Sequence record: NZ_CP067424.1
DNA length: 64,000 bases
Origin: a plasmid
Direction: 5' to 3' (one strand)
Each line of letters starts with the position of its first letter. Position 1 is the stretch's first letter. Below are positions 5,485-42,846 of the stretch, piece by piece. A program made the translations under genes and the position numbers. The notes under the pieces are model-generated. The model was given only the letters and a program-made list of their open reading frames with translations, was not told where the DNA came from and searched no databases.

Positions 5485-5564
5485 AATTGTATCCTCAGTT
5501 GATTCGGTTCAGGTCAACACACATATTAATACTAATTTTATCTAAGGATCAAGTCAATATGGTT

Positions 5565-9948: not shown

Positions 9949-9959
9949 GGTTCGCACAT

Positions 9960-26180: not shown

Positions 26181-26951
26181 ATGGCAGGGCGGGTGCCGCT
26201 GGCGAGGTCGAAAGACGCGCTGATCGAGCGATGGCTGAGGTTCGCGCCGAAGGCCGGCGGAGAGTCGGCAGGGCGGGTTTACCTGCCCGACCTTGGAAAA
26301 CCGAAGGCGGTGCATCGGGGTACGACACGGCTGGGCAGCGGCGAAGGGTCGTCGTACCGTCGCCGCGTGGTGGTGATCTCCTACCATTACCGCATGGCCG
26401 GTGCGGGATACTCTAAGTTGCACAGCCACATCCGGTATGTCGAGCGGCCCGGGGCCGGCGAACGGGCGGTGACGCCGTCGCTGATCGATCGAAACGGCGA
26501 CGGCGTCACGGGCCATTCGGCCGTCCAGGGGTGGCGGGACGACCGGCACCATTTCAGGCTCATCCTGGCGCCGAACGACGGCGCGCAGCTCGACATGGCG
26601 GCCTATACCCGCGAGTACATGGCCGAGCTGGAGCGCCGTCTGGGCACCCGGCTGGACTGGTTCGCGGGCATCCACGAGAAGCCGGACGCGACGCACGCCA
26701 TGAACCGGCACGCCCACGTCATCCTCCGGGGCATCGCCCAGGACGGAACCGACCTGGTGATGGACAGGGAATTTATTCGGTTCGAGATGCGCCGCATCGC
26801 CGAGGATCTGGCGACCCGGCACCTGGGTCCGATGAGCCAGCGGGAGATGGACCGGTATATGGAACGGCAGGCCCAACGGTTGCGAGACGGGGAACGGAAC
26901 TACCACATGGGCCGGCGCCCGATCCGGGGGGAGGATCGCGGCCGTGATTGA
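26181..26951 (+). CDS. Relaxase-like protein (DUF3363 / VirD2-like HUH domain), short form
   Basis: RRVVV…HSHIRYVERPG…HHFRLILAPNDGAQLD…LGTRLDWFAGIHEKPDATHAMNRHAHVILRG matches the N-terminal catalytic region of alphaproteobacterial DUF3363 relaxases (His triad). Only 256 aa; the usual long C-terminal region is absent. Its stop overlaps the T4CP start. Confidence 0.6.
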   Translation: MAGRVPLARSKDALIERWLRFAPKAGGESAGRVYLPDLGKPKAVHRGTTRLGSGEGSSYRRRVVVISYHYRMAGAGYSKLHSHIRYVERPGAGERAVTPSLIDRNGDGVTGHSAVQGWRDDRHHFRLILAPNDGAQLDMAAYTREYMAELERRLGTRLDWFAGIHEKPDATHAMNRHAHVILRGIAQDGTDLVMDREFIRFEMRRIAEDLATRHLGPMSQREMDRYMERQAQRLRDGERNYHMGRRPIRGEDRGRD

Positions 26952-28725
26952 CCTCGGGCAGATCCTGACCAACCCGGAACCGTTCGTGCAGGCCACGCGG
27001 ACGTGGATCGAGACCAACGCCGTGCTGCTGGCCGGCTGCGCGGCCGGCGCGTTGACGGTCGCGGGGGTGGCCGGGGTCGGGGCCGGCTACGTCGTGGACC
27101 GGCTGCGCGATGCGGCCGAGGACCGGCAGCGTTACGGCGGCAAGAGGGAGGCGAAGCGCGCCGGGCTGCTGCGCAACCCGAAGCTGGAGTACTCCGGCAT
27201 CCCCCTGGGTCGGATCGGGCGCAAGCACCTGTGCTGGGTAGACCAGGAGCCGGTGCTGGTGACGGGCGGCACCCGGTCGGGCAAGGGTGTCGGCGTGATC
27301 CGCCCGGCCTGCCTGACCTATGGCGGGCCGATGGTGATGTATGACGGCGGCAAGGGAGAGCTGTTCAGGACGACGTCGGGGTGGCGCAAGCGGTTCAGCC
27401 ACGTCCTGAACCTCGACCTGACCAACCCGGCCGGCGTCCACTTCAACTTCCTGGAGGAGATCGACCCGGCCAACCCGGTGGCCGGGGCCGACAACCTCGC
27501 CAAGTCGGTGCCGCGACCGGCCAGGTCGGACGAGCACTTCGAGGCCGGCGCCGACCGTCTGATGGGGGCGGTGATCCTGCACGTGCTGCACGGGGAGCCC
27601 GACGAGCGCAAGAACATGGCCGAGGTGGTCCGGCTGATCTCCCAGGGAGACGTCGGGATGCGCCGCATAGCCGAAACGAAGGCGCATCCGGTGGCGGTCG
27701 ACCGGATCAACGCCCTGTTCGGCGGCGACCCGTTCGGCGAGAAGTCCGGGGACGGCATGAAGTACCGCGGCATGTTCTACAACGCCGCCCTGGTGCGCCT
27801 GTCGCCCTTCGAGGACCCGATCGTCGCCCGGGTGACAGGCCGGTCGGACTTCAGGATGCGGGACCTGTTTCGGCTGAGCCCGAAGCGCAGGCCGGTGTCG
27901 CTCTACCTGACGACGCCGGCCAGCGATGACGATCGCCTGCGACCGGTGACCAGCATGTTCCTGTCCATGCTGATGGGCGCGATCATGAGGGAGCAACCGG
28001 CGCTGGAAGGGGAGCCGATGTCGCTGCTGGTGGTCGACGAGTTCGCCAGCCTGCGCCTGGAGATCCTGCAGACCGCGATCACCAAGATCGTCGGGTGCGG
28101 CGCCACCATGCTGCTGGGCGCCCAGTCGCTCAACGCCCTGCGTCAGGCGCCCTACGGGCCGTACAACCAGTTCCGCGACAACATCCGCTGCCACGTCGTC
28201 TACGCCGCCAACGACGGCATGACCCAGCAGGAAATCTCCCAGTCCTGCGGCACCGTCACGGAACGGCGCAGGTCGACCAGCCGGAGTCGCTCTTCCGGCA
28301 CCTGGGCGCGGTCGCATACCGAGAGCGTCAGCGAGGTCGAGCAGCCGGTCATCAACCCCGGCGGCGTCCGCCAGCTGAGGGATCGGTTCGAGCTGGTGCT
28401 TATCACCGGTCAGCCCGTGATCCGGGCGCGCAAAATCGTGGACCACAAGGACCGCATCCTGCGCAAGCGGCTGGATCTGCCCCAGGCTGCCCTGCGCGGC
28501 TCCGACGGCGCCTATCCTGATCTGCCGCACCCGCACCGCCCGAGCGCCTGGGCGGGCGTGCCGGTTCACCCGCAAACCCCGGAAGCCATGGCCTCCGGCG
28601 CCGGGGCCGTCGATGACGGCGATTTGCCGGAACCGCCGGCGAATGACGACGCCACCGCTCCCCCTGCCAGGCCGAAGCCGAGGCGCAAGCGAAAGCTGAT
28701 CACAGCCCCTGGAGGTGAAGAATGA
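26944..28725 (+). CDS. traG: Type IV coupling protein (VirD4/TraG family)
   Basis: 593 aa. Two N-terminal TM helices. Walker A VTGGTRSGKGVG and Walker B LLVVDEF. GTG start overlapping the relaxase stop. Confidence 0.9.
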   Translation: MIDLGQILTNPEPFVQATRTWIETNAVLLAGCAAGALTVAGVAGVGAGYVVDRLRDAAEDRQRYGGKREAKRAGLLRNPKLEYSGIPLGRIGRKHLCWVDQEPVLVTGGTRSGKGVGVIRPACLTYGGPMVMYDGGKGELFRTTSGWRKRFSHVLNLDLTNPAGVHFNFLEEIDPANPVAGADNLAKSVPRPARSDEHFEAGADRLMGAVILHVLHGEPDERKNMAEVVRLISQGDVGMRRIAETKAHPVAVDRINALFGGDPFGEKSGDGMKYRGMFYNAALVRLSPFEDPIVARVTGRSDFRMRDLFRLSPKRRPVSLYLTTPASDDDRLRPVTSMFLSMLMGAIMREQPALEGEPMSLLVVDEFASLRLEILQTAITKIVGCGATMLLGAQSLNALRQAPYGPYNQFRDNIRCHVVYAANDGMTQQEISQSCGTVTERRRSTSRSRSSGTWARSHTESVSEVEQPVINPGGVRQLRDRFELVLITGQPVIRARKIVDHKDRILRKRLDLPQAALRGSDGAYPDLPHPHRPSAWAGVPVHPQTPEAMASGAGAVDDGDLPEPPANDDATAPPARPKPRRKRKLITAPGGEE

Positions 28726-29048
28726 CGAAGGTCGAATTCAAGCTCTACCTGGAGCCGAACCTGGCATCCCAGATAACCGAGACGACGGCGCAGTTCCGCG
28801 GCGCCGGCCGGAAGGTCTCCCGCAACGAGGTATTGGAGCAGCTGATCGAGGACGGTTTCCGCCTGTGGCGCCGGGAGGCGCAGGTGGTCAACCGTGTGGA
28901 GGCCGGCATCGCCAAGCTGCTCGACCAGTCGGCCCGCCAGGACCGGCTCCTGCGCTCGATCCTGCTGACCCTTGCCGAGGGCGACCAGGTAGAATACCGC
29001 AGGGTGATCGAAACCATTGAACGCGAGGATGCCGGCAATGCCGCTTGA
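28722..29048 (+). CDS. Small conjugation-associated protein (108 aa), function unknown
   Basis: ATGA overlap with the T4CP stop. Sits between the coupling protein and trbB in the same operon. Confidence 0.4.
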   Translation: MTKVEFKLYLEPNLASQITETTAQFRGAGRKVSRNEVLEQLIEDGFRLWRREAQVVNRVEAGIAKLLDQSARQDRLLRSILLTLAEGDQVEYRRVIETIEREDAGNAA

Positions 29049-30000
29049 GCTGCAGGGGGAGAACCTGACCGCGAACCGGACCGAGGGCATGAGGCGCCTG
29101 CTGGACGACCTGGAGGACGCCTACGGCCCGATCATCCGGACGGCCAAGCAGACGCCGGGCTGCACCGACATCATGGTGAACGAGGACGGCGCGATCTGGC
29201 TGACAGTCGGCGGGCAGGACAGGCCGACCGGCGAGCACCTGACCGAACACGCCGCGCGCCGGATCGTCACCTTGGTCTCGGACATCGACAATCACCCGAT
29301 CGAGAAGGCGGCGCTGTCGGCCAACCTGCCGACCGGCGAGCGGTTCGCGGCCCTGCTGCCGCCCACGGTGCGCCGGATCACCTTCTCGATCCGCCTGCCG
29401 CCGGGGCGGATCTTCACGGTGGACGATTATGTCGCCGCCGGCGCCATGACGGAGGCGCATGCCGACGTGCTGCGCGCGGGCGTGGCCGACCGCAAGAACA
29501 TCCTGATCGTCGGCGGCACCGGAGCGGGCAAGACGACGCTGGGCAACGCCCTGCTGGCGGAGGCGCCGTTCCGGTCCAGCCGGGTCTTCATCATCCAGGA
29601 CCAGGACGAACTGCGGGTGAGTGGTCCCAACGTGGTCCGCGCCTTCACCGGCGCGATGAATGCCCGCGAGCTGGTCCGCGAGGCCTTGCGCCACAAGCCC
29701 GACCGCATCGTGATCGGCGAAATCCGGGACGGGGAGACGGCACTGGAATGGATTGGTGCCAGTAACACCGGCCACCCCGGCGGGCTTTCCACGGTCCACG
29801 CCAACTCGGCGGCGCATGGCCTGTCGCGCATCTCGCGACTGATCGGCCACGTAGCCGCCAACGTGCCGCACGGCGACATCATCGAGGCGGTCGACATGGT
29901 GGCGTTCATCCGGCGGGAGCGGGACGGATCACGGCGCCTGGCCGAGATCGTAAAGCCGACCGGGCATGACGGAGAGAGATACCGGACAGACACCGTCTAG
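29017..30000 (+). CDS. trbB: Conjugal transfer ATPase TrbB (VirB11 family)
   Basis: Walker A GGTGAGKTT. VirB11 motifs DRIVIGEIRD and His box GHPGGLSTVHAN. Start ambiguous (ATG at 29017, 29029 or 29080). Confidence 0.85.
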   Translation: MNARMPAMPLELQGENLTANRTEGMRRLLDDLEDAYGPIIRTAKQTPGCTDIMVNEDGAIWLTVGGQDRPTGEHLTEHAARRIVTLVSDIDNHPIEKAALSANLPTGERFAALLPPTVRRITFSIRLPPGRIFTVDDYVAAGAMTEAHADVLRAGVADRKNILIVGGTGAGKTTLGNALLAEAPFRSSRVFIIQDQDELRVSGPNVVRAFTGAMNARELVREALRHKPDRIVIGEIRDGETALEWIGASNTGHPGGLSTVHANSAAHGLSRISRLIGHVAANVPHGDIIEAVDMVAFIRRERDGSRRLAEIVKPTGHDGERYRTDTV

Positions 30001-30020
30001 GGAGGACACTATAAAACAGG

Positions 30021-31317: not shown

Positions 31318-31356
31318 TATATTTTTCCATATTGTTTGTTCCGCGATCCTGCCGCC

Positions 31357-31851: not shown

Positions 31852-31870
31852 CGATCTTCCCATAGCACTA

Positions 31871-32125
31871 GCCATGAGCAGGCTTGACCCGATCCACCGG
31901 TCGGTTGTTGCATGGGGCATGGAGCAGCATGATCCTACCCTGCTCGACCAGGTGAACGGGGTTATTTCCCTGGCGGACGTGGCGTGGCGCCTACCGCCGG
32001 GGCGTTCCGCTTCCCTGGCCCGGAAATTCCGGCTTATCGGCTTGGTCTTTGAAGCCTCTGCGGCTGTCCAGAAGCGCGATATGCTTAGAGAGCTGCAAAT
32101 CACATACGACGACATCCGTCAGTAG
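31871..32125 (+). CDS. Small paralog P4 (84 aa)
   Basis: Homologous to P1. The same conserved 3' flank (TAGCATATTTACTATATCGTTGGTTCCGCGATCCGGCCG) follows it. Confidence 0.4.
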   Translation, partial: AMSRLDPIHRSVVAWGMEQHDPTLLDQVNGVISLADVAWRLPPGRSASLARKFRLIGLVFEASAAVQKRDMLRELQITYDDIRQ

Positions 32126-32331
32126 CATATTTACTATATCGTTGGTTCCGCGATCCGGCCGTCGCCGGATCAGCGTGTATTTCCAGCGGGCTCGCGCCTC
32201 GCGCGAGGTTGTAGGCGTCGCTGAAGGCCGGTTCCGGCCCTCTTGACACAAATTCTGGTGCTGCCAGCGGTTGGAAGGCAGGGATGCAGACTGGCTTAGC
32301 GATGATCCTGTCCGTTCGATGGATGGTCGCT

Positions 32332-33645: not shown

Positions 33646-33677
33646 AGGCATTGCCTGACGGGGTCTTTGGTGTACTA

Positions 33678-33700
33678 TTGACTACGAATTATTTGTAGTA
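33678..33700 (+). promoter_or_regulatory. Putative trb promoter/operator: TTGACTAC-N9-GTAGTA (palindromic, overlapping a -35-like TTGACT)
   Basis: TACTATTGACTACGAATTATTTGTAGTATTAC 27 nt upstream of trbC. A near-identical element is at 40843-40865 upstream of trbG. Confidence 0.45.
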
Positions 33701-33726: not shown

Positions 33727-34044
33727 ATGCGCAAGACCTTGGGCGATGCAGCATCTTTCGCGCTGGCCACGCTGATCGTCACCGCGGCCGACCCGGCGCT
33801 GGCGCAGTTCAACGGCGGCGGTGACGTGCCGTTCCAGCAGGGTATGAGCACGGTGCTGAACTGGGCCTTCGTCGCCGGCATCGCGGTGGCGCTGTTCTCG
33901 TTCATCCTGGCCTGCGTCTTCCTGTTCATGCGGAACCTGATCGGTTTCGCCGGCGGTGTCCTGGGCGTCCTGATCGGCGGTGCGCTGATGGCGAATGCCC
34001 CGACCATCGTCCAGGGGCTGACCAACCTGTCGAGCCCGTTCTGA
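33727..34044 (+). CDS. trbC: T4SS pilin TrbC (VirB2 family)
   Basis: 105 aa. Long signal peptide, then two hydrophobic helices (…WAFVAGIAVALFSFILACVFLF…GGVLGVLIGGALMA…). Confidence 0.8.
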   Translation: MRKTLGDAASFALATLIVTAADPALAQFNGGGDVPFQQGMSTVLNWAFVAGIAVALFSFILACVFLFMRNLIGFAGGVLGVLIGGALMANAPTIVQGLTNLSSPF

Positions 34045-34319
34045 TGGAGGCCGGGCGGACTTACAAGAGCCTGGAGGTGCCGCCCAACTATTTCGGGTGC
34101 CACATCCACGTGGCGCTGATCGCCATCCTGATGCCGGTGGCGGCCCTGCTGGGCTTCCTGTTCCTGGACTGGCTGACGGCCCTGCTGCTGGTGCTGTCCG
34201 CCCTTGGCTCTTCCGCGACCGTGTTCTCGCTGGGTGCCTGGTTCGGACGCGAAGACCCTTACTGGGTCGAGGGCGGGCAGAGGCATCTCCTGGACGAGGA
34301 GCACTATCTCGATGTTTAG
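34044..34319 (+). CDS. trbD: TrbD (VirB3 family)
   Basis: 91 aa, TGATG overlap with trbC, single TM. Sits between pilin and the VirB4 ATPase, the canonical position. Confidence 0.75.
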   Translation: MEAGRTYKSLEVPPNYFGCHIHVALIAILMPVAALLGFLFLDWLTALLLVLSALGSSATVFSLGAWFGREDPYWVEGGQRHLLDEEHYLDV

Positions 34320-36822
34320 GATCGGAGCGAACCGGGGGGCGGCTGCCGTCCCCCTGACGGCCAAGCTGCCGTGGGCCTACTTCGCCGAGCAGGGCATCGT
34401 GTTCCTGAAGTTCGGCGGCTTCATGCGTACCCTGCGGTTCCGCGGCGGCGATGCCGACAGCATGAGCGAGACCGACCTGGTTGCCACGATGCGGCGACTG
34501 CACGATGCCCTGCGCCGGGTGCGTGGGCAGATGAGCCTGCACATCGAGGCGCAGCGCCGGCCGGCGTCGCCCTATCCCGGCGCCGACCTGGGCGACCGGG
34601 AGCGCCGCGCCCTGTGGCCGGACCCGATCTCCTTCCTGTTCGACGAGGAGCGCCGCACCGCCTACGACCGGACCGGTTCCCAGTTCGAGACCGACCGCTA
34701 CATCACCTTCGTCTGGCGTTGCTCGCGGGCATCGACCCGCCGGGCGCGGTCCTTCTTCATGAGCGGCAAGAAGAAGGCAGGCAAGGCCGGCAGCGCCGAA
34801 CTGCACGAATTCGTCCAGGCCAGCAATGCCGTGAAGGGCATGCTGGACGGCGTCATGAAGGAATGCGCCTGGCTCGACGACGACGACACCTTCGACTTCC
34901 TGCACAAGGCGGTTTCGGTCCATCAGCACCGGGTGAAGCCGTCCTACGGCAAGGCCCGGATCGACTACGACGTTGCCGACTGCCGGGTGGTCGGCGGTGC
35001 CGAGCCGATGCTCGGCCCGTGCCACATGCGGACGATCAGCGTCAAGAATTCGCCGGACACCATCCCCGCGGCGCTGGCCGCGCTGGACTCCCTGCGGTGC
35101 GAGTACCGCTACTCGATCCGGTGGATGGGCATGGAGCACGCCGAAGGCCTGCGTCGCATCGAGCAGCAGCTGCGGGACTGGAGGATGCTCGGCATCGCGA
35201 TGATCCCGATGCTGATCTCGTACATGCTTCGGTCGAACAAGCAGAAGGAGAACGAGGCGGCCAACGCCATGGCCGAGGATGCGCAGGAAGCCATCTACGC
35301 GGTGCGCCGGGATGACCTGACCATCGGCCACGCCACCATCAATGTCGTTGTCTGGGACCGTGACGAGGAACGGCTGGAGAGAAAGGTCGGGTGGGTCGAG
35401 GACACCCTGCGCCGTCAGCAGCTCACCGTCACCAGCTACACCGTGGCGCCCCTCGACACCTGGCTCGGCACCTTGCCCGGCCACATCTACGCCGACCTGC
35501 GCCGGCCGATCCGCACATCCGTCAACCTGGCGCACTTCGCACCCTATTCGTCGGTGTGGTCCGGCGAGGTGTGCAACGATCACCTGTCCAGGAAGCTGGG
35601 CCGGCCGATCCCGCCGCTGCTGATCGCCACGACGGACGGGTCGACCCCGTTCCGGCTGAACCTGCACCGCGGCGACCTGGGCCACACCCTGATCTTCGGC
35701 CCGTCCGGCAACGGCAAAACCACCCTGATGAACGCCATGATCACCGGGTGGCGGCGCATCCCCGGCTCCAAGGTCTGCATCTTCACGATCAAGGGCGGCG
35801 GCGAGGTCGTGACCCGGCTGCTGGGCGGCGTCTCCTACGATGTCGGCGCCGTGGGCCCGGGGGCGCTGGGCTTCCAGCCGCTGCGGTATGCCGACGAACC
35901 CAACGAGCGCATCGAGCTGCTGGAATGGGTGCTGGGCCTGATGCGCGCCCAGGGGATCGACACGAACAGCGCCGTGGTGAAGGAGGAGGCGACCGGTGCC
36001 CTGGACCTGATCGCCCGGAACCCGCCGGAACGACGCACCCTGACCCACTTGAGCGGCTACCTGACCACCGAGGTGCTGAAGCGGGCGGTCCGGCACTATG
36101 CCCTGGCCGGCGACACCTACGGCCGGCTGCTGGACGATGACCGGGACCGGATCGAGCTGTCGGACATCCTCAGCCTGGACATGACAAGCCTGCTGAAGAA
36201 GACCGACGTGGCCCCGCACGTCCTGGCGCACCTGTTCCGCTACGTCGAGCGTCGCGTCTTCACCGGGGACCCGGTGCTGCTGGTGGTCGACGAGGCGTGG
36301 CTGTTCCTGGGCGACAGCCGGTTCGCCGCGAAGTTCGATGAGTGGCTGCGGGCCGCCAGGTCGAAGAACGTGGTCGTGGTGTTCGCCACCCAGAACATGA
36401 AGGATGCCTTCGACAGCGTCATCGGCAAGGTGCTGGCCGATGCCGAGAACGTGCCCAACATCATCCTGCTGCCCAACCACCGCGCCGGCAGCGAGAAGGG
36501 CCGGAAGCCTTACGAGCAGCTGGGATTTCACGAACGCGACATCGAGATCGTGGCAACCGCCACGCCGAAGCGTGACTACTACTTCACGTGCCCTGACGGC
36601 GCCCGGCTGTTCGACCTGGGTCTCGGTCCGCTGGGCCGGGCGCTCTGCTCCTCTACCGACACGAAGGACGACCTCGGCTTGGCCCGGGGCATCCTGGCCG
36701 ACCATCCCGCTGAGGAATTCGCAGAGCACTTCCTCGACGCCAAGGGCGTGGGCTGGGCAGCTGAGTTCGTCCGGCATGAGGCAGGGCGTCGGCCAGTCGA
36801 AATCGCCGCGGCCGCTGAGTAG
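34312..36822 (+). CDS. trbE: Conjugal transfer ATPase TrbE (VirB4 family)
   Basis: About 835 aa. Walker A GPSGNGKTT. Walker B …VLLVVDEAW. ATGTTTAG overlap with trbD. Confidence 0.9.
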   Translation: MFRIGANRGAAAVPLTAKLPWAYFAEQGIVFLKFGGFMRTLRFRGGDADSMSETDLVATMRRLHDALRRVRGQMSLHIEAQRRPASPYPGADLGDRERRALWPDPISFLFDEERRTAYDRTGSQFETDRYITFVWRCSRASTRRARSFFMSGKKKAGKAGSAELHEFVQASNAVKGMLDGVMKECAWLDDDDTFDFLHKAVSVHQHRVKPSYGKARIDYDVADCRVVGGAEPMLGPCHMRTISVKNSPDTIPAALAALDSLRCEYRYSIRWMGMEHAEGLRRIEQQLRDWRMLGIAMIPMLISYMLRSNKQKENEAANAMAEDAQEAIYAVRRDDLTIGHATINVVVWDRDEERLERKVGWVEDTLRRQQLTVTSYTVAPLDTWLGTLPGHIYADLRRPIRTSVNLAHFAPYSSVWSGEVCNDHLSRKLGRPIPPLLIATTDGSTPFRLNLHRGDLGHTLIFGPSGNGKTTLMNAMITGWRRIPGSKVCIFTIKGGGEVVTRLLGGVSYDVGAVGPGALGFQPLRYADEPNERIELLEWVLGLMRAQGIDTNSAVVKEEATGALDLIARNPPERRTLTHLSGYLTTEVLKRAVRHYALAGDTYGRLLDDDRDRIELSDILSLDMTSLLKKTDVAPHVLAHLFRYVERRVFTGDPVLLVVDEAWLFLGDSRFAAKFDEWLRAARSKNVVVVFATQNMKDAFDSVIGKVLADAENVPNIILLPNHRAGSEKGRKPYEQLGFHERDIEIVATATPKRDYYFTCPDGARLFDLGLGPLGRALCSSTDTKDDLGLARGILADHPAEEFAEHFLDAKGVGWAAEFVRHEAGRRPVEIAAAAE

Positions 36823-36831
36823 GAGGAAACA

Positions 36832-38775
36832 ATGCGTCCGTCCGTGATCGCCGGTCTGTTGCTGACCGGCACCGCCATCGGGACCCCCGCCCTGGCGGCA
36901 ACCATCGAGGTGCAGCCGGGCGACAACCTGGAGGCTAAGATCCGCTCGGCCCGGCCGGGCGATACCGTGGCGGTCCGGCGCGGCACCTACAACGGCAGCC
37001 TGGATCTGAGCACCCTGCACGGTGATCCGGGGGCGCCGATCCGCATCCTCTCGGTTGACGGCAAGGGTGCCGCGGTGATCCAGGGGAGCCGCGATCAGGC
37101 CGCCGTGCAGGCCAACCGGATCTCGAACGTCGAGATGGACGGCTTCCATGTGGTCGCCAACGCGCCCGGCGGCGGTGACGTCGGCGGCTTCAAGCTGTGG
37201 GGGCCTTACGGCGACATCGGCAACCTGAAGATCACGAACAACCTGATCACCGGCCAGGGGCAGGACGGCTTCAAGCTGTTCAACATGTCGCCGACCGACC
37301 AGCAGAGCGTCCTGGTGGCCGGCAACACGATCGACGGTAACTGGCGTCAGGAAGCCATCGACAACGTCAGCGTCAAGAATGTCCGGTACGAGGGCAACAC
37401 GATCAGGGGCAAGGCTGGCTTCGCCGGCATCACCTGGAAGGCCGGCAGCGACGGCGTGCAGCTGGTCAACAACACGATCGACATCGACGCCGATACGGCG
37501 GTCTCGGTTGGCGGCTACGGCAACAGCCGCCTGAACCGGATGGACCGGTTCCCCGACGAGTTCCAGGACAACGAGGCAGAAAACAGCGTGGTCACCGGCA
37601 ATACCATCCGGGGCGACGTGCGGGTGATCTCGGCCGAGAACAACCGAGTCGAGGGGAACAGCATCACCGGCAGCATCAGCAACGGCCAGAACAGCCACAT
37701 GCCGGGCTCGATCACCAGCCGGAACAACGCCATCGCCCACAACAGAGTGACCGGCGGCACGGGAGCGTCTGCCTGGAACGGCAACACCGATACCCAGTTC
37801 GAGCGCAACGTGGACGGCCTGGCCAACAATTTCTACGACACCGACGAGCAGTTCTGGGGGGCGGTGGAGCGCGGGGAAGCGGGCGCGCTGCGCCGGCTGA
37901 ACGACCTGGTGTCCGGCGGCATCATCGTGCGCGAGGGCAACCGGATCATCAACAGGGCCACCGGCCAGATCACCAGCGCGGTCGGCAACGCCATCGGCGA
38001 CGCTGTCGACACCGTGCTGCAGCCGGCGGAGGATTACGTCGACGCTGCCGTCGAGACCGTGAAGTGCAACATCGGCGGCGCAGTGATCGGTGGCGCCGCG
38101 TCGGTCGTCAGCGGGATTTTCTCGGGCGGCCGGGCGACGCTGGCAGCACAGATCGCCCAGCAGATGACCGCGATCGCCGGCAACCTGTGCCTGGGCAAAC
38201 AGCTCGCCGCCCAGCAGCGCCTTGTCGAACTTGCCAGGCGGGACAATGCCCACGGCACGGCCGACAATGCCGCCGGCCTCAACGGCATGATGACCAGGAC
38301 CCTGCCGGGGCTGGCGCAGGGCGGCTTCCTGTCGTCCGAGCAGGCCATCGCCAGCCAGTACGGCGAGGTGTACCCGGATGCCTTTCCGCCCATGCTGCCG
38401 GACGACCTGGTTGCCGTGAACCGGTCCATGCAGGCCCACGAACGCACGGTACACCTGAACAGCTTGGCGGTCCAGAACCGGACGGTCCAGGAACAGGCCG
38501 ACACCCTGGAGCGGGCGCGCGACCATGCAGCCGCCGGCCGGGCCGGTGACGGCATCCGCTCCGAGCTGCAGGCCATGAACGCCATTGGCGGCGAGCAGAT
38601 CGCGGCGATCAACAGCCTGACGGCGGCCACGGTAGCTAATCATCGTGCTTCGACCGAGATACAGTTACGGGACGAGTCAAGGAAAGCCGCAGCAAACGCA
38701 ACGGCCGAGGAGTTCATGTCGACCCTGGCGACTTGCGGGAACTGCACCATAGACCGCCCGTTTTTGGGCGAATAG
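36832..38775 (+). CDS. trbJ: Fusion protein: signal peptide, right-handed parallel beta-helix domain (about aa 30-400), then TrbJ (VirB5-like) domain (about aa 400-647)
   Basis: PbH1-type repeats (GNTIDGN, GNTIRG, NNTIDIDAD, GNTIRGDVRVISAENNRVEGNSITG, NNAIAHNRVTGG). The C-terminal coiled-coil region (YGEVYPDAF…LQAMNAIGGEQIAAINSLTAATVANHR…) is homologous to P-type TrbJ. Single uninterrupted ORF with a good RBS. Confidence 0.75.
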   Translation: MRPSVIAGLLLTGTAIGTPALAATIEVQPGDNLEAKIRSARPGDTVAVRRGTYNGSLDLSTLHGDPGAPIRILSVDGKGAAVIQGSRDQAAVQANRISNVEMDGFHVVANAPGGGDVGGFKLWGPYGDIGNLKITNNLITGQGQDGFKLFNMSPTDQQSVLVAGNTIDGNWRQEAIDNVSVKNVRYEGNTIRGKAGFAGITWKAGSDGVQLVNNTIDIDADTAVSVGGYGNSRLNRMDRFPDEFQDNEAENSVVTGNTIRGDVRVISAENNRVEGNSITGSISNGQNSHMPGSITSRNNAIAHNRVTGGTGASAWNGNTDTQFERNVDGLANNFYDTDEQFWGAVERGEAGALRRLNDLVSGGIIVREGNRIINRATGQITSAVGNAIGDAVDTVLQPAEDYVDAAVETVKCNIGGAVIGGAASVVSGIFSGGRATLAAQIAQQMTAIAGNLCLGKQLAAQQRLVELARRDNAHGTADNAAGLNGMMTRTLPGLAQGGFLSSEQAIASQYGEVYPDAFPPMLPDDLVAVNRSMQAHERTVHLNSLAVQNRTVQEQADTLERARDHAAAGRAGDGIRSELQAMNAIGGEQIAAINSLTAATVANHRASTEIQLRDESRKAAANATAEEFMSTLATCGNCTIDRPFLGE

Positions 38776-38787: not shown

Positions 38788-38964
38788 ATGAAAACTTTGG
38801 TAATCGCCTCGATCCTGCTTGTCGCCCTGTCCGGTTGCTGGGACGCCGAGCAGAAAAAGAAGTCGGACGACTTCATGAGCAACCTGACGAAGTGCGAGAA
38901 TGACTGCCGGATTACCGAACCCTTCCTGGGCGGCGGCAAGAAGGGCGAGGGCGATGGACGCTGA
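38788..38964 (+). CDS. trbK: Small lipoprotein (58 aa), probable TrbK-like entry-exclusion protein
   Basis: MKTLVIASILLVALSGC lipobox. RBS AGGAGGATAA. Sits between trbJ and trbL as in RP4/Ti. Stop overlaps the trbL start. Not in the ORF track (<60 aa). Confidence 0.45.
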   Translation: MKTLVIASILLVALSGCWDAEQKKKSDDFMSNLTKCENDCRITEPFLGGGKKGEGDGR

Positions 38965-40099
38965 TTACGCCTACCTCAACGCTGCCATCAAAGAGATGCT
39001 GGCCCGGGTCACGTCTACCGGATCCGCCATCGACGCGGCGCTTCAGCCGGTGTACCTGATCACCGGCACGCTGCTGTTCGTCATCGCGTTGATGAAGTTC
39101 ATGTGGCAACGCGACTTGGCGCCGCTGGCCGCGTTCGTCATACGCTATATGCAATTGATGGTTCTGATCTTCATATCCGGTCAGTGGATGCCGCTGACCG
39201 ATGCGTATGTTTCCGGCATGGGTAGTTTCGGCGCCGGCATCGCGGGGTTCGATATCCTGCAACTGGCTCCGGGAACGGTGATCGTTCGCGCGCTGGAGCT
39301 GGCGAACAGGATGTACAGCGAGAACGTCTCCTGGATGCGCCTGATGCTGGGCAGTACGCAGGACACGGTCGCTCACCTGCTGCTGCTGATCGGATGCGCC
39401 GGCACGATCCTGCTGAGCATCTTCATGGCCGCCTGGATCATGCTGTTTTTCGTGGTCTTCAAGCTCGCCACCGTGGTGGCACTCGTCTTCCTGGCCTTCA
39501 TGATGTTCGACAGCACCCGGTTCATGGCGGCGCCGGGTCTGGCGCGCATCGTGGCTTACGGCACCCAGATGCTGGTGCTGGGACTCGCCACAGGCATGTT
39601 CTTCATGGTTCTGGATGCCCTGGACCTGAGCGGGCACCTGCATGTCGGCCAGTCGATCTCGCTGCTGGTGGTCATGTTCTTCTTTGCCCTGCTATTCAAG
39701 TACACGACGGATATCGCGCGCGAGCAGCATTCCGGCATGCCGACCCTCGGGCTTCACGACATTGGCCGGACTGCCGGGCAGATAGCCGGCGCCGCGGCCT
39801 CGACGGTGGGCACGATCGGCACGGTTGGCTTGGGCGCCCTTGCCATGTCTCGCGCCGCCGCGATCTCCCGGCCAGCGACTGCTTCCTACGCCATGACCGG
39901 CCCTGGCGCTGCCGGCGGTTCGGCCGGTGCCATCGGTGGGCCGCCGCCGTCCGTCGCCCGCATGCTCAACAAGCCGTCGGTCGACGCGACCTGGACGGAG
40001 GCCCGGGACCTCGCCCCGGCCTCGGTCCAACGGATGCTGAGCCAGAGCCGGAAGGCATTGCCGGCACCGCCGCGCCAGCTGCCCCCTCCCCGTTCCTGA
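38954..40099 (+). CDS. trbL: TrbL (VirB6 family) polytopic membrane protein
   Basis: Multiple TM helices. Gly/Ala/Pro-rich C-terminal tail. Position after trbJ/K. Confidence 0.8.
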   Translation: MDADYAYLNAAIKEMLARVTSTGSAIDAALQPVYLITGTLLFVIALMKFMWQRDLAPLAAFVIRYMQLMVLIFISGQWMPLTDAYVSGMGSFGAGIAGFDILQLAPGTVIVRALELANRMYSENVSWMRLMLGSTQDTVAHLLLLIGCAGTILLSIFMAAWIMLFFVVFKLATVVALVFLAFMMFDSTRFMAAPGLARIVAYGTQMLVLGLATGMFFMVLDALDLSGHLHVGQSISLLVVMFFFALLFKYTTDIAREQHSGMPTLGLHDIGRTAGQIAGAAASTVGTIGTVGLGALAMSRAAAISRPATASYAMTGPGAAGGSAGAIGGPPPSVARMLNKPSVDATWTEARDLAPASVQRMLSQSRKALPAPPRQLPPPRS

Positions 40100-40121: not shown

Positions 40122-40799
40122 ATGCTCGGTTTGAACCGCGGTCACTGGAAGGAAGACGACGAGTACAGGAAGGCCCGCTGGGCCTACGAAGGTCAAGGTG
40201 CCGGCGCCACCAGAGCGGCATGGTTCCTGGGCGCCGGACTGATCGCCGTCACGGCGTTCGCCGGCATCCAGACCTATGACAAGCACCTGCTGGCCAAACT
40301 GGACGACCTGAAGTTCGTGGCGATCGAGAGCAACCGGACCACCGGCGAGGTTGTCAGCGTGTCCAAGGTGACCGGCGAACTGATGGCCGACGAGACCAAG
40401 CGCCGGCAGTTCGTGCGGTGGTGGATCGAACTGTGGCGCAACGTGCCGGCCGATGCCGTCGCCTACAATCGCTCCTACCTGGCGGCCCAGGTCTACATGG
40501 CCGACCCGGTCCACCACGCGGTCGCGGCCTACATGAGCGAGAACCCGGTCAACACCTTCATCCGGTCGGGCCATGCCCGCATGGTGCGGGTCCAGAACGT
40601 GACGCCGGCCGGCAACGGCACCCGCTACCGGGTGGACTGGATCGAGAGCGTCTACCGGAACAGCCAGCTGGTCAACCAAACGCCAATGACGGCCGACCTG
40701 GACCTGGAGCAGCACACGCCGCGCACCGATGCGGAGGCCGAGGCCAACATCTTCGGCTTCGTGGTGAAGGGTTTTTACTGGACCCCGCCGGCGATGTGA
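40122..40799 (+). CDS. trbF: TrbF (VirB8 family)
   Basis: 225 aa. N-terminal TM, then NTF2-like periplasmic domain (…VYRNSQLVNQTPMTADLD…). Canonical position. Confidence 0.8.
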   Translation: MLGLNRGHWKEDDEYRKARWAYEGQGAGATRAAWFLGAGLIAVTAFAGIQTYDKHLLAKLDDLKFVAIESNRTTGEVVSVSKVTGELMADETKRRQFVRWWIELWRNVPADAVAYNRSYLAAQVYMADPVHHAVAAYMSENPVNTFIRSGHARMVRVQNVTPAGNGTRYRVDWIESVYRNSQLVNQTPMTADLDLEQHTPRTDAEAEANIFGFVVKGFYWTPPAM

Positions 40800-40842
40800 C
40801 AATGTAAGTGCCTTTCCCCGAGAGGGCACGATCATTATACTC

Positions 40843-40865
40843 TTGACTACTATATTTTTGTAGTC
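40843..40865 (+). promoter_or_regulatory. Second copy of the TTGACTAC-N9-GTAGTC palindromic operator/promoter, upstream of trbG
   Basis: TATACTCTTGACTACTATATTTTTGTAGTCATG. Same spacing and flanks as the copy at 33678. Confidence 0.45.
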
Positions 40866-40891
40866 ATGCCGCTTCGGGGGATGTGCTGACC

Positions 40892-41761
40892 ATGAGACGT
40901 GCCGCCTTCTTGATCCTTCCGCTCATCGCAGGGTGCGCCTCGTCAAAGTACGAAGCGCCCCTGCCGACCCTCCCCTCGGCGTCCCTTCAGCTGCCGAGAG
41001 CACCGGCCCGGCCGCCGCTGCCGGACACCCTGCCGAAGCTGCCGGCCGAAGATCCGGTCAAGGCCATTGCCGGTGCCACCAAGGACGGCCTGGTGAAGCC
41101 GCGCCGGGAGTGGTTCAAGGGGCTGACCTACATGCCGCCCTACCACCCGAACCACGGCTACCTGGTCTATATCCCGTTCGGCCTTTCCTCGACCTTCGAG
41201 TTCAGTCCCGGCGAGAAGCCGCAGGATGCGACCTGCAGCGACAGCAGCGGCAACATCATCGCACCAAGCTGGTCGAGCATGGGCGTCGGTGCCGGAAAGA
41301 AATGGGTTTTCCAGGTCAAGGTGACGATGGAGCCGCCGTTCCCCCGCCAGGACTGCACGGTGCTGACCACCCGCGGCATCTACTCGATCTATGTCCAGGG
41401 CACCAGGAGCACCCATACGGCCAAGGTCCGCTGGTCGGACCCTTACGGTGTGCTGTCCGAGGCCGACCCCGAAGCGCCGGAGCCGTGCGCCCAGGCCGAC
41501 ATCGACTATGCCCTGTCCGGTGATCCCGGCGCCTTCGGCCTGCGTCCGGGCGACGTCTCCAACGACGGCCGGCATACCTGCCTGCGGTTCCCGCAGTCCG
41601 CGGGCTTTGACCTTCCTTCCGTCTGGCTGATCGAGGGCGACCAGGAGCGCCCGGCCAGCCCGACCATGATCGACGGTGCCTACAGGATCGACGGGGTTCC
41701 CCGCGTGATCGAGCTGCGCACCGACAATGCCACCCTTCGCATCGAGAGAGCCGCGCCATGA
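40892..41761 (+). CDS. trbG: TrbG (VirB9 family) lipoprotein
   Basis: MRRAAFLILPLIAGC lipobox, then a Pro-rich linker and VirB9-like beta domains. ATGA overlap with trbI. Confidence 0.85.
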   Translation: MRRAAFLILPLIAGCASSKYEAPLPTLPSASLQLPRAPARPPLPDTLPKLPAEDPVKAIAGATKDGLVKPRREWFKGLTYMPPYHPNHGYLVYIPFGLSSTFEFSPGEKPQDATCSDSSGNIIAPSWSSMGVGAGKKWVFQVKVTMEPPFPRQDCTVLTTRGIYSIYVQGTRSTHTAKVRWSDPYGVLSEADPEAPEPCAQADIDYALSGDPGAFGLRPGDVSNDGRHTCLRFPQSAGFDLPSVWLIEGDQERPASPTMIDGAYRIDGVPRVIELRTDNATLRIERAAP

Positions 41762-42846
41762 CCCAGGCAGAGACCGAATACGTTGACCCGCCGCGGTCGG
41801 TGAACGACCCCCGGCCGCCGATCCACACCATGCTGAAGTGGCCGGTTGCCCTGGCCGGCACGGCGATGGTCGCCCTGCTGGCCGGCATCACCATCGGCCC
41901 CACCCTGTTCCGGGACGAGCCGGAGCCCAAGCGGGTGGACCCGGAACCGAGGATGGCCACGCCCCGTCCGCTGCACGGCATGCCGACGGATTACAGCCAG
42001 GTCCAGCCGCCGCCGGAACCGGAAGCAGTACCCGCCCCGGCGCCCGCCCCTGCCCCTGTGGCGGCGCCGGCTCCCGCCCCGGTCACCCGCGTCATGGGGG
42101 GTGGTCCGAGAGGGCCGACCAAGACCGAGTTGTTGAGGGAGGCGATGCGCTCGCCGCTGAAGCCGATCCCGATCACGTCGGGCGGCAACGTCGCGGTCGA
42201 GCAGGCCGCTGTCGGCGGATCGGGCGGCGCCGCACCGGCCAGCAACCTCTACAGCCGGCATTCCCTGGTCGATCCTTACGAGTGCCAGGTCAATGCCGGC
42301 ACCAACATCCCGGCCATGACCGAGCAGCGCATCACCAGCGAGTCACCTGGCACGGTATCGGCGGTGGTGACCCGGGACGTCTGGAGCGCCGACAAGGCGT
42401 GCCTTGCCATCCCGCGGGGTACCCGGTTCGTCGGCCGCTACCAGACCCAGGTGGCCGAGGGACAGGCGCGACTCGGCGTGATCTGGACCGGCCTGACCCG
42501 CCCGCCGCCGCGCAACGACACGATCGACCTGGACGACACCGTGGCGGGGGATCCGGACGGCACCGCCGGGCTCAGCGGCGAGGTGAACGGCTTTTTCTGG
42601 CGCAAGCTGGGCTATGTGGCCGCCGCCTCGCTCCTGGACATCGGGCGGACCAGCATCCAGGCGACCGGCGAGGGTGGCATGGGAGCCGCGATCGCGGGCA
42701 TTTTCGCCAATCGTGCCACGAGTCCCATTGATGAATGGGCACGCCGCCAGTTAGACATTCCCCCGGTGATACAGGTGCCGCCGCGCGAGATCAGCATCGT
42801 CCTGGCGCGGCACGTGCCGATGGACGAGTTCAGAACCGGGAGATAG
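41758..42846 (+). CDS. trbI: TrbI (VirB10 family)
   Basis: N-terminal TM. Pro-rich region (PEPEAVPAPAPAPAP). Conserved C-terminal VirB10 barrel region. Confidence 0.85.
   Translation: MTQAETEYVDPPRSVNDPRPPIHTMLKWPVALAGTAMVALLAGITIGPTLFRDEPEPKRVDPEPRMATPRPLHGMPTDYSQVQPPPEPEAVPAPAPAPAPVAAPAPAPVTRVMGGGPRGPTKTELLREAMRSPLKPIPITSGGNVAVEQAAVGGSGGAAPASNLYSRHSLVDPYECQVNAGTNIPAMTEQRITSESPGTVSAVVTRDVWSADKACLAIPRGTRFVGRYQTQVAEGQARLGVIWTGLTRPPPRNDTIDLDDTVAGDPDGTAGLSGEVNGFFWRKLGYVAAASLLDIGRTSIQATGEGGMGAAIAGIFANRATSPIDEWARRQLDIPPVIQVPPREISIVLARHVPMDEFRTGR

What the first reader, a model, noticed from the sequence alone, without database searches (positions are those of the whole stretch)
36832..38775. TrbJ (VirB5-like T4SS protein) fused to a roughly 400-aa secreted right-handed beta-helix domain
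TrbJ is normally a protein of about 250 aa. Here one uninterrupted 647-aa ORF carries a signal peptide, about 370 aa of classic PbH1 beta-helix repeats, and then the TrbJ-homologous coiled-coil region. The PbH1 repeats (GNTIDGN, GNTIRG, NNTIDID, NRVEGNSITG, NNAIAHNRVTGG) are the fold of pectate lyases, phage tailspikes and adhesins. VirB5-family proteins sit at the pilus tip, so this looks like a conjugative pilus tip with a built-in glycan-binding or depolymerase module for recipient recognition or surface penetration. I do not recognise this architecture from characterised Trb/VirB systems.
Basis: partly seen in the sequence, partly recalled or inferred. Interest (0 to 1): 0.8.

Follow-up and report, generated by a model that had tools for sequence, protein, structure and literature searches.

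The report
TrbJ pilus-tip protein carrying beta-helix head
A plasmid conjugation machine in the soil bacterium Skermanella has its pilus-tip subunit (TrbJ/VirB5) fused to a sugar-chain-cutting-type beta-helix domain like those of phage tailspikes, a real and recurrent but apparently undescribed design that may let the mating pilus bind or cut through a partner cell's polysaccharide coat.

Summary
Window 36832..38775 (+) is one uninterrupted 647-aa ORF. It has a strong ribosome-binding site and uniform coding signal. It lies exactly in the trbJ slot of a Trb-type type IV secretion operon (trbE, X, trbK-like, trbL, trbF, trbG, trbI).

No curated HMM recognises either domain on this protein itself. 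Other evidence does:
- A profile of the last 238 residues matches canonical TrbJ (hhalign 99.8%, E 2e-28). All 74 TrbJ-sized proteins it retrieved match NCBIfam TrbJ models.

The fusion is not an assembly error. About 30 homologues from isolates and metagenomes keep it, always in the trbJ slot. One passes the TIGR02780 TrbJ cut-off.

[quoted passage not shown] That step is inferred. A periplasmic role remains possible, because the same domain is also found fused to TrbL.

I found no description in the literature searched. Verdict: new variant of a known kind.

Side finding: the TrbK-like lipoprotein copies the C-terminal tail of its cognate TrbJ, also in R751.

The parts
36821..36826 (+). Shine-Dalgarno AGGAGG, 5 nt upstream of the ATG. 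It overlaps the trbE stop codon (TAG 36820-36822), which suggests translational coupling.
   Evidence: sequence read directly
36832..38775 (+). Whole gene: 647-aa beta-helix-TrbJ fusion protein. It is 100% identical to Skermanella sp. TT6 plasmid protein IGS68_34855, annotated 'hypothetical protein'.
36832..36897 (+). Sec-type signal peptide, aa 1-22 (MRPSVIAGLLLTGTAIGTPALA, with an A-L-A cleavage motif).
   Evidence: Sequence inspection. Alignment A1 shows conserved T24 and I25 directly after the predicted cleavage site. No signal-peptide predictor was available.
36898..37752 (+). Right-handed parallel beta-helix domain, aa about 23-307. Invariant residues are D145, K148, D177 and K203, plus an Asn ladder (N137, N165, N189, N214, N257).
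37753..38058 (+). Conserved linker, aa 308-409 (QFERNVDGL..YDTDEQFW..LRRLNDLVSGG..INRATGQ..DTVLQP.ED). Predicted helical at low confidence. No family match.
   Evidence: Also present in homologues that lack a full beta-helix (P0021-P0025).
38059..38772 (+). TrbJ/VirB5-family core, aa 410-647. It comprises Cys412, a Gly/Ala-rich hydrophobic stretch, GGRAT, Cys453, and then the helical body. aa about 441-637 align to canonical TrbJ.
   Evidence: hhalign 99.8%, E 2.2e-28. Profile search retrieved canonical TrbJ; 74/74 match NCBIfam TrbJ models. Weak direct hit to NF010448, E 0.0043.
38698..38772 (+). C-terminal tail of the TrbJ core (AEEFMSTLATCGNCTIDRPFLGE). It is copied in the downstream TrbK-like lipoprotein.
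38788..38964 (+). 58-aa lipoprotein (lipobox LSGC) in the trbK (entry exclusion) position. Its C-terminal part (SDDFMSNLTKCENDCRITEPFLGG) mimics the TrbJ tail.
   Evidence: R751 TrbJ/TrbK show the same relation.
34204..36822 (+). trbE/virB4 ATPase, immediately upstream. The true start is probably downstream of 34204.
   Evidence: NCBIfam TrbE NF010447, E 1.9e-205
38900..40099 (+). trbL/virB6, immediately downstream. The start codon is uncertain; it overlaps the small lipoprotein ORF.
   Evidence: Pfam TrbL 1.8e-11
40122..42846 (+). trbF/virB8 (40122-40799), trbG/virB9 (40883-41761) and trbI/virB10 (41758-42846).
26181..30000 (+). Upstream part of the transfer region: relaxase-like ORF (26181-26951), coupling protein VirD4/TraG (26944-28725), small ORF (28722-29048) and TrbB/VirB11 ATPase (29017-30000).
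33727..34319 (+). trbC/virB2 pilin-like (33727-34044) and trbD/virB3-like (34044-34319).
   Evidence: Weak Pfam TrbC hit. Position and hydrophobic sequence. Same order in L001-L006.

Best explanation
The gene encodes the TrbJ (VirB5-family) subunit of a P-type (Trb) type IV secretion/conjugation system of a Skermanella plasmid. A secreted right-handed beta-helix domain of the polysaccharide lyase/epimerase/tailspike type has been grafted in front of the ordinary TrbJ body of about 240 aa, joined by a helical linker of about 100 aa.

Shown:
- The architecture.
- Its conservation.
- Its fixed position in the operon as the only TrbJ.
- A set of invariant charged residues in the beta-helix (D145, K148, D177, K203), shared with secreted RTX-linked relatives.

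Inferred mechanism:
1. After Sec export, five copies assemble through the TrbJ core on the TrbL/VirB6 pentamer.
2. [quoted passage not shown]
3. Once pilin is added underneath, that crown would be at the pilus tip.
4. There it would bind, and probably cleave or modify, an extracellular polysaccharide (capsule, EPS or LPS of the recipient or of the donor's own coat). This would let the tip reach the recipient outer membrane, much as a phage tailspike does.
For: Architecture and identity:
- Single ORF with uniform coding signal and a ribosome-binding site.
- The C-terminal core is TrbJ: hhalign 99.8%, E 2.2e-28. The profile retrieved 257 representatives, and 74/74 TrbJ-sized hits match NCBIfam TrbJ.
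- Homologue P0090 (550 aa) passes the TIGR02780 cut-off (107 vs 100.55 bits) and has an N-terminal NosD-like beta-helix.

Synteny:
- The trbE, X, small lipoprotein, trbL, virB8, virB9, virB10 order holds in the window and in L001, L004, L006 and L008. No other TrbJ is present. Short family members of 263-367 aa occupy the same slot in L003 and L009.
- A coupling protein and a relaxase-like gene lie upstream.

Conservation:
- About 30 proteins have beta-helix plus TrbJ core.
- 20 of the 22 representatives of at least 540 aa carry a beta-helix.
- D145, K148, D177 and K203 are invariant in 39 domains, including 11 not fused to TrbJ.

Extracellular substrate:
- The closest non-T4SS relatives (40-49% identity) are beta-helix plus RTX-repeat proteins, the architecture of secreted AlgE-type enzymes.
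- One of them lies beside cysCD and a sulfotransferase.

Geometry:
Against: - No experiment or structure places this domain at a pilus tip.
- The C-terminal AF2 model is poor (pLDDT 44.8), and a fold search with it gave nothing. The VirB5 fold and the N-terminal orientation are therefore assumed by homology only.
- The same beta-helix is fused to the N-terminus of TrbL/VirB6 in other loci (P0011, P0013). VirB6 stays at the inner membrane, so the module can evidently work without travelling to a tip.
- Five 30-kDa beta-helices plus linkers must pass the outer-membrane core complex. This is untested.
- In the window the operon is interrupted by an IS5/NUDIX insertion between trbB and trbC, so this particular copy may not be fully expressed.
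Confidence: 0.5

Rival explanations
1. Periplasmic, donor-side role. The beta-helix stays in the donor periplasm attached to the stalk (TrbJ or TrbL). There it remodels or binds peptidoglycan or periplasmic glycans to make room for the machine (a VirB1/TrbN surrogate), or it acts as a structural spacer around the stalk.
For: - The same domain is fused to TrbL/VirB6, an inner-membrane stalk-base protein, in P0011 and P0013.
- No SLT/VirB1-like gene was detected among the ORFs scanned in the window's transfer region.
- Before pilus growth, VirB5 sits in the periplasm on VirB6 (PMC12624023).
Against: - The nearest relatives outside T4SS are RTX-repeat proteins of the type exported to the medium. 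The structural neighbours act on extracellular acidic polysaccharides. None is a known peptidoglycan enzyme.
- The TrbL-fusion locus L002 already has its own SLT gene.
- The ring of VirB8 arches around the R388 stalk leaves limited room (PMC9259494).
Confidence: 0.22
2. Pure adhesin. The beta-helix is catalytically inert and serves only as a rigid binding module, for a glycan or a protein on the recipient surface. It would be a bacterial-conjugation counterpart of CagL-type specialised VirB5 proteins.
For: - Beta-helix adhesins are among the structural neighbours (PfbA, Vag8).
- VirB5 proteins are implicated in adhesion (PMC12857230; PMC12624023).
- No CAZy-family HMM hits the domain.
Against: - Four charged residues on successive coils (D145, K148, D177, K203) are invariant across TrbJ-fused, TrbL-fused and RTX-linked versions at only 25-45% overall identity. 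This pattern is more typical of a catalytic or metal-binding groove than of a diversifying receptor-binding face.
- The top structural hits are enzymes.
Confidence: 0.2
3. Artefact. Two genes (a secreted beta-helix protein and trbJ) were joined by a frameshift or assembly error, or the C-terminal region is an unrelated coiled coil and not TrbJ.
For: - No curated HMM for either domain hits the protein itself at E<=0.01.
- PDB sequence searches find nothing.
Against: - Uniform GC3 and no stop codon across the junction.
- About 30 independent homologues from isolates and metagenomes, at 35-89% regional identity, keep the fusion.
- hhalign to TrbJ gives 99.8%. Some fusion proteins reach or pass TrbJ HMM thresholds.
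- There is no separate trbJ in any locus.
Confidence: 0.02

Closest known systems
TrbJ of IncP-1 plasmids (RP4/R751) and Ti plasmids; VirB5 family (VirB5 of A. tumefaciens, TraC of pKM101, TrwJ of R388)
   Same: - Homologous helical core of about 230 aa (hhalign 99.8%).
- Sec signal peptide.
- Gene order trbE-trbJ-trbK-trbL.
- C-terminal tail shared with the TrbK lipoprotein, as in R751.
- Expected pentameric stalk-tip/pilus-tip subunit (by homology; PMC9259494).
   Different: - About 390 extra N-terminal residues: a beta-helix of about 285 aa and a linker of about 100 aa.
- The core is so diverged that curated TrbJ HMMs give only E 0.004.
- It has a family-specific Cys, Gly-rich hydrophobic stretch, GGRAT, Cys element at the start of the core.
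CagL of Helicobacter pylori and the variable Trw VirB5 copies of Bartonella (VirB5 proteins specialised for target binding)
   Same: A VirB5-family scaffold adapted to recognise a particular target surface.
   Different: Those adapt the helical body itself (an RGD motif, or sequence-variable copies). Here a separate enzyme-like domain is appended. The target is presumably a bacterial polysaccharide, not a host protein. This comparison rests on literature knowledge (PMC12857230; PMC9259494) and was not tested.
Phage tailspike/depolymerase proteins
   Different: There is no detectable sequence homology to tailspikes. No trimerisation module is present; the expected stoichiometry is pentameric through TrbJ. 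The device is a conjugative T4SS, not a virion.
AlgE-type mannuronan C-5 epimerases and PL31/PL6/PL9 lyases
   Same: - Relatives of the window's domain also occur as beta-helix plus RTX repeats, like the AlgE A+R modules.
   Different: - 12-19% sequence identity.
- Catalytic motifs of those families were not identified here.
- The window protein has no RTX repeats and carries a TrbJ domain instead.
Evolved VgrG/PAAR spikes of type VI secretion; 'extended VirB6' proteins
   Same: A core tip or stalk subunit of a secretion machine extended by an accessory functional domain. A review compares the VirB5 pentamer with the PAAR-VgrG tip (PMC12624023). Extended VirB6 proteins are recognised (PMC12857230). 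Beta-helix-TrbL fusions were seen here.
   Different: These are a different machine (T6SS) or a different subunit (VirB6). An extended VirB5/TrbJ with an enzyme-like head is not mentioned in those reviews.

Membership tests
TrbJ / VirB5 family (P-type T4SS) | Match to curated TrbJ/VirB5 HMMs above threshold (NCBIfam NF010448, TIGR02780; Pfam PF07996) | tested here: not met
   The whole protein gives no hit at E<=0.01. The isolated C-terminus hits NF010448 at E 0.0043, 16 bits against a cut-off of 225. Fusion-family members do better: P0090 reaches 107 bits on TIGR02780 (cut-off 100.55), and P0057 reaches E 1e-15 on NF010448.
TrbJ / VirB5 family (P-type T4SS) | Homology of the core to canonical TrbJ by profile methods | tested here: met
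   hhalign of A4 against A5 gives probability 99.8%, E 2.2e-28, 194 columns covering TrbJ positions 38-232 of 239. The A4 profile retrieves TrbJ-sized proteins at E 1e-20 to 1e-6 library-wide, and 74/74 of them match NCBIfam TrbJ.
TrbJ / VirB5 family (P-type T4SS) | Gene located between trbE/virB4 and trbK-trbL/virB6, as the only such gene in the operon | tested here: met
   Window. Relatives L001, L003, L004, L006, L008 and L009. R751 for comparison.
TrbJ / VirB5 family (P-type T4SS) | Sec signal peptide / periplasmic export | tested here: met
   Typical n-h-c region ending in A-L-A, by inspection. No predictor was run.
TrbJ / VirB5 family (P-type T4SS) | VirB5 fold (long helical bundle with appendage, as in TraC 1R8I and TrwJ) | tested here: inconclusive
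   The AF2 model is all-helical but has mean pLDDT 44.8. Foldseek against the PDB finds nothing at E<=0.001; CagL appears only at rank 26 with E 5.2.
TrbJ / VirB5 family (P-type T4SS) | Pentamer on VirB6, and location at the pilus tip | not testable with these tools
TrbJ / VirB5 family (P-type T4SS) | C-terminal tail related to the adjacent TrbK entry-exclusion lipoprotein (seen here in R751; not a textbook criterion) | tested here: met
   Window pair: Smith-Waterman score 59, z 9.8. Eight other loci: z 4.7-16.7. R751 TrbJ/TrbK: score 53, z 9.2.
Right-handed parallel beta-helix (pectate-lyase-like) superfamily | Pfam or NCBIfam beta-helix HMM hit on the protein itself | tested here: not met
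   No Beta_helix, NosD or Pectate_lyase hit even at E<=10. Homologues do hit PF13229, PF05048, PF07602 and PF22842.
Right-handed parallel beta-helix (pectate-lyase-like) superfamily | Three-dimensional fold | tested here: met
   [not shown]
Right-handed parallel beta-helix (pectate-lyase-like) superfamily | Stacked Asn ladder on successive coils | tested here: met
   N137, N165, N189, N214 and N257 are invariant or 97% conserved in 39 domains, with a spacing of 24-43 residues.
Defined polysaccharide lyase/epimerase families (PL31, PL6, PL9, AlgE) | Family-specific catalytic and Ca-binding residues in the groove | tested here: inconclusive
   D145, K148, D177 and K203 are invariant. Identity to the structural hits is 12-19%.
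RTX (type I secreted) beta-helix proteins | C-terminal Ca-binding nonapeptide repeats | tested here: not met
   The window protein has none. Its beta-helix relatives P0012 and P0015-P0018 have them.

The most novel reading that the evidence does not exclude
TrbJ/VirB5 is a modular tip platform.

- In a whole clade of Trb systems it carries exchangeable N-terminal 'heads'. These are a beta-helix depolymerase-like domain in at least 20 sequence clusters, and other modules of about 100-190 aa in further clusters.
- This would make the conjugative pilus a tailspike-like device that enzymatically opens a path through the recipient's capsule or EPS.
- Heads are swapped between co-resident T4SSs by recombination. 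In one strain the head is 89-92% identical while the machine-binding body is 14% identical.
- The machine-specific C-terminal tail is copied into the TrbK lipoprotein, which would explain the specificity of entry exclusion.
Probability: 0.3. Interest if true: 0.85.

Novelty: new variant of a known kind. Interest (0 to 1): 0.65.

Why it matters
How a conjugative pilus tip recognises and breaches a recipient envelope is an open question. Reviews state that the mechanism 'remains poorly understood' (PMC12624023).

A natural VirB5 with an enzyme-type beta-helix on its outward-pointing N-terminus gives a concrete, testable case of a tip-borne glycan-binding or glycan-cutting activity. It would tie conjugation host range to surface polysaccharides in the way phage depolymerases tie host range to capsule type.

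It also shows that annotation pipelines miss the TrbJ identity of these proteins. They are labelled 'hypothetical' or 'beta-helix repeat protein', so T4SS loci of this clade appear to lack VirB5, and the plasmids are typed as non-mobilizable or only mobilizable.

The side observation that TrbK copies the tail of its cognate TrbJ, including in R751, offers a simple molecular hypothesis for entry-exclusion specificity.

Tried and rejected
1. Direct HMM confirmation. Pfam and NCBIfam on the whole protein and on its halves, up to E 10, gave no Beta_helix or TrbJ hit except NF010448 at E 0.0043 on the C-terminus.
2. PDB sequence searches with the protein and with the core profile gave nothing meaningful.
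3. AlphaFold2 of aa 322-647 with 7 sequences gave pLDDT 44.8, which is unusable. Foldseek with that model had no hit at E<=0.001. Both structure-prediction jobs were then spent, so no deeper-alignment or multimer model could be made.
4. A taxonomic survey in GTDB genome contigs failed. Two scans (with alignment A1 and with the single protein) matched patterns, but none was confirmed by tblastn. The taxonomic range outside Skermanella therefore remains unknown; the other members are metagenomic.
5. The window's own plasmid is not in PLSDB (best hit 86%), so its deposited annotation could not be read. The relative pSR-5 was used instead.
6. The frameshift/fusion-artefact idea was rejected.
7. 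An 'internal relic signal peptide' reading of the Gly-rich hydrophobic stretch (aa 413-432) was rejected. Short family members have both a true signal peptide and this stretch.
8. A search for a VirB1/SLT gene in the window's transfer region found none among the ORFs scanned. The scan was not exhaustive.
9. Literature searches for beta-helix VirB5/TrbJ, for TrbJ extensions and for the Skermanella T4SS found no relevant description.
Full report
**1. The observation**

Window 36832..38775 (+) is an uninterrupted 647-aa ORF with an ATG start.
- An AGGAGG ribosome-binding site at 36821-36826 lies 5 nt upstream and overlaps the stop codon of the preceding gene.
- GC at the third codon position is 0.86-0.98 in every 150-nt block of the frame, and there is no internal stop. 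Nothing in the sequence suggests a frameshift.
- The protein is 100% identical to a 'hypothetical protein' (IGS68_34855) of a 71-kb plasmid of Skermanella sp. TT6.

**2. Context**

The gene sits in a Trb-type (P-type, MPF-T-like) type IV secretion operon.
- Upstream: a relaxase-like ORF (26181-26951), the coupling protein (26944-28725), a small ORF and TrbB/VirB11 (29017-30000).
- Then TrbC-like (33727-34044), TrbD-like (34044-34319) and TrbE/VirB4 (to 36822; NCBIfam TrbE E 1.9e-205).
- Then the 647-aa gene, a 58-aa lipoprotein (38788-38964), TrbL/VirB6, TrbF/VirB8, TrbG/VirB9 and TrbI/VirB10.

This is the canonical trbB-C-D-E-J-K-L-F-G-I order seen in Ti plasmids. The query occupies the trbJ position and no other trbJ candidate exists. 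The close relative S. rosea pSR-5 has the same order.

**3. Curated HMMs fail on the protein itself**

Pfam and NCBIfam scans of the whole protein and of its halves, up to E 10, give no Beta_helix, pectate-lyase, TrbJ or VirB5 hit. PDB sequence searches give nothing.

**4. N-terminal domain**

Homologues at 40-49% identity over aa 1-280 include several architectures:
- stand-alone beta-helix proteins;
- beta-helix plus RTX-repeat proteins (Pfam Beta_helix, DUF1565, NosD, HemolysinCabind);
- two proteins in which the same domain precedes TrbL.

An AlphaFold2 model of aa 1-363, built on 21 sequences, has mean pLDDT 82.7. Residues 20-305 are mostly above 90 and consist of short strands in coils.
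- Foldseek returns polysaccharide lyases, AlgE epimerases, RbmB, pectin methylesterases and tailspikes at probability 1.0.
- Across 39 such domains (28 fused to TrbJ, 11 not), an Asn ladder (N137, N165, N189, N214, N257) and four charged residues on successive coils (D145, K148, D177, K203) are invariant.

The fold is therefore established. Activity is only suggested. The domain ends near aa 307. Residues 308-409 form a conserved linker that is predicted helical at low confidence and has no family match.

**5. C-terminal domain**

A profile search with aa 322-647 found the following:
- stand-alone proteins of 260-264 aa that JGI calls 'conjugal transfer/entry exclusion protein';
- versions of 348-367 aa and 432-463 aa;
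- further versions of 557-573 aa with a beta-helix.

All share a core of about 238 aa. It begins with a Cys, a Gly/Ala-rich hydrophobic stretch, GGRAT and a second Cys.

The evidence that this core is TrbJ:
- Several members, and the window's own C-terminus, give weak but colinear top hits to NCBIfam TrbJ models (E 3e-5 to 4e-3).
- An exhaustive HMMER search of 1.84 billion representatives with the core profile gave 257 hits at E<=1e-3.
- The 74 TrbJ-sized hits tested all match NCBIfam TrbJ models, best E 1.7e-82.
- hhalign of the core profile against those 74 gives probability 99.8%, E 2.2e-28. It covers TrbJ positions 38-232 of 239, which correspond to aa about 441-637 of the window protein.
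- One beta-helix fusion (P0090, 550 aa) passes the TIGR02780 TrbJ_Ti cut-off.

The C-terminal region is therefore a diverged but genuine TrbJ, the VirB5 homologue of Trb systems (table in PMC12624023). The AF2 model of this region was poor (pLDDT 44.8), and a fold search with it was uninformative. The VirB5 fold is thus inferred from homology and not shown.

**6. The fusion is real and recurrent**

With local HMMs for the two domains, 30 of 167 core-containing proteins in hand carry both domains (546-682 aa). With P0059, 20 of the 22 representatives of at least 540 aa among the best 150 hits have a beta-helix.

In every contig examined, the fusion gene lies between trbE and a small ORF plus trbL. 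These contigs are L001, L004, L006 and L008. L005 is a 2.7-kb fragment in which the flanking genes are cut off and unidentified. Short family members occupy the same slot in L003 and L009.

Strain TT6 alone has at least five such loci: the window plasmid, pTT6-1, pTT6-3, pTT6-5 and the chromosome. Apart from Skermanella isolates, all members are metagenomic. Two attempts to survey GTDB genomes failed.

**7. Mechanism**

Published structures show the following (PMC9259494; PMC12857230; PMC12624023):
- VirB5 forms a pentamer mounted on a VirB6 pentamer.
- Its N-terminal part projects outwards like that of pore-forming proteins.
- It is carried to the pilus tip as pilin is added beneath it.

By homology, an N-terminal extension would crown the distal end of this pentamer. 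The nearest relatives of the beta-helix are RTX proteins of the secreted type. One lies next to PAPS-synthesis and sulfotransferase genes. The structural neighbours act on extracellular acidic polysaccharides.

I therefore favour a tip-displayed module that binds a glycan and probably cleaves or modifies it, helping the pilus or stalk tip cross a polysaccharide coat. My confidence in this functional step is about 0.5.

The main rival is a periplasmic, donor-side role. It is supported by the beta-helix-TrbL fusions and by the absence of a detected SLT gene in the window's cluster. A purely adhesive, non-catalytic role is also open. Artefact explanations are excluded.

**8. Comparison and novelty**

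The protein is a member of the TrbJ/VirB5 family by profile homology and synteny, although it falls below curated HMM thresholds. It carries a domain of the pectate-lyase-like beta-helix superfamily. Functionally it resembles phage tailspikes and evolved VgrG/PAAR spikes.

Reviews from 2025 discuss 'extended VirB6' proteins but mention no extended VirB5. Targeted literature searches found no description. Public annotation calls these proteins 'hypothetical' or 'beta-helix repeat protein'. I rate it a new variant of a known kind.

**9. Things noticed on the way**

(a) The 58-aa lipoprotein after the gene (trbK position) ends with a near-copy of the C-terminal tail of its cognate TrbJ.
- The same holds in eight other loci with unrelated tail sequences: cognate Smith-Waterman scores are 42-102, against 12-37 for other classes apart from three intermediate scores of 45-55 between L004, L006 and L008. 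The z-scores are 4.7-16.7.
- It also holds in R751 TrbJ/TrbK (z 9.2).
- Papers report that the TrbK C-terminus is essential for exclusion, and that trbJ and trbK in recipients both confer exclusion. The passages read do not mention this similarity.

(b) The protein is a recombination mosaic. Against the pTT6-3 paralogue, the beta-helix, linker and first 56 residues of the core are 87-92% identical, but the last 182 residues are 14% identical. Other relatives show the opposite pattern.

(c) An IS5 element and a NUDIX gene (about 30001-33700) separate trbB from trbC in the window, unlike in pSR-5.

Noticed in passing
window 38788-38964 (+) and 38698-38772 (+); also L001, L002, L003, L004, L005, L006, L008, L009; R751 L011:25565-26567: The small lipoprotein in the trbK (entry-exclusion) position ends in a segment of about 25 aa that copies the C-terminal tail of its cognate TrbJ. 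In the window, TrbJ has AEEFMSTLATCGNCTIDRPFLGE and the lipoprotein has SDDFMSNLTKCENDCRITEPFLGG. The pairs co-vary across six unrelated tail classes (cognate z 4.7-16.7 against shuffles; most non-cognate pairs are at background). The relation also holds for R751 TrbJ/TrbK (z 9.2). This could explain entry-exclusion specificity by mimicry. The passages of three entry-exclusion papers that were read do not mention it.
   Followed up: partly
window 36832-38775 versus L008:5789-7732 (pTT6-3), P0003, P0006, P0010: Domain-level mosaicism. Against the paralogue on pTT6-3 of the same strain, aa 23-465 are 87-92% identical but aa 466-647 are only 14% identical. Against P0006 the pattern is even (56/44/71/68%). 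Against P0010 the beta-helix is 29% identical but the linker is 70%. This implies recombination breakpoints near aa 310 and aa 465, with heads exchanged between co-resident T4SSs.
   Followed up: partly
window about 30001-33700 (NUDIX gene 30021-30452, minus strand; IS5 transposase 32417-33493): A block of about 3.7 kb, carrying a NUDIX hydrolase gene and an IS5-family transposase (98.6% identical to a copy in S. mucosa), lies between trbB and trbC. These two genes are adjacent in S. rosea pSR-5. The transfer operon of this plasmid may be split or polar-disrupted.
   Followed up: partly
L002:4219-6570 (P0011) and P0013: The same beta-helix domain (about 42-49% identity) is fused to the N-terminus of TrbL/VirB6 in other metagenomic Trb loci. 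There a 167-aa protein sits in the trbJ slot, and an SLT gene, a TraF-like peptidase and a TrwC relaxase are present.
   Followed up: partly
L007 (pTT6-5) 2458-8135; L008 (pTT6-3); H18 (pTT6-1); P0005 (chromosome): Skermanella sp. TT6 carries at least five T4SS loci, each with a beta-helix-TrbJ gene. In pTT6-5 an integrase and a Tn3-family transposase are inserted between that gene and trbL. MOB-suite types these plasmids as non-mobilizable or mobilizable although T4SS and coupling-protein genes are present.
   Followed up: partly
window 26181-26951 (+): A 256-aa ORF directly upstream of the coupling protein has no Pfam hit. It is 39% identical over 124 aa (E 1e-23) to the equivalent ORF of L006, which carries a weak Relaxase (PF03432) hit. 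It may be a small, unrecognised relaxase.
   Followed up: partly
L010:9121-16243 (pTT6-2): The RTX-linked beta-helix paralogue lies beside cysC, cysD, a second beta-helix protein and a sulfotransferase. This hints that this beta-helix family acts on a sulfated polysaccharide.
   Followed up: no
window 173-3223, 6952-10023, 13598-15895 (all minus strand); 16989-18263; 18885-19823; 22953-23498: The left third of the window is packed with mobile-element genes: three Tn3-family transposases (one N-terminally truncated), a Mu-like/rve transposase, a tyrosine recombinase and a resolvase. GC content swings between 0.49 and 0.72.
   Followed up: no
window 38065-38190 (aa 412-453) and 38737-38748 (aa 636-639): Two Cys residues bracket the Gly-rich hydrophobic stretch and the GGRAT helix (C412, C453) and are invariant across the family. 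A CxxC (CGNC) sits in the C-terminal tail and recurs, with varying spacing, in the TrbK-like lipoprotein (CDNC in L001, L003 and L009; C-E-N-D-C in the window). Disulfides or metal binding in the periplasm are possible.
   Followed up: no
L004:12252-14279 and L006:12083-14035: In two fusion-bearing loci TrbL is itself unusually long (650-675 aa, against about 380-400 aa in the window and in L003/L009). This amounts to an 'extended VirB6' next to an extended VirB5.
   Followed up: no
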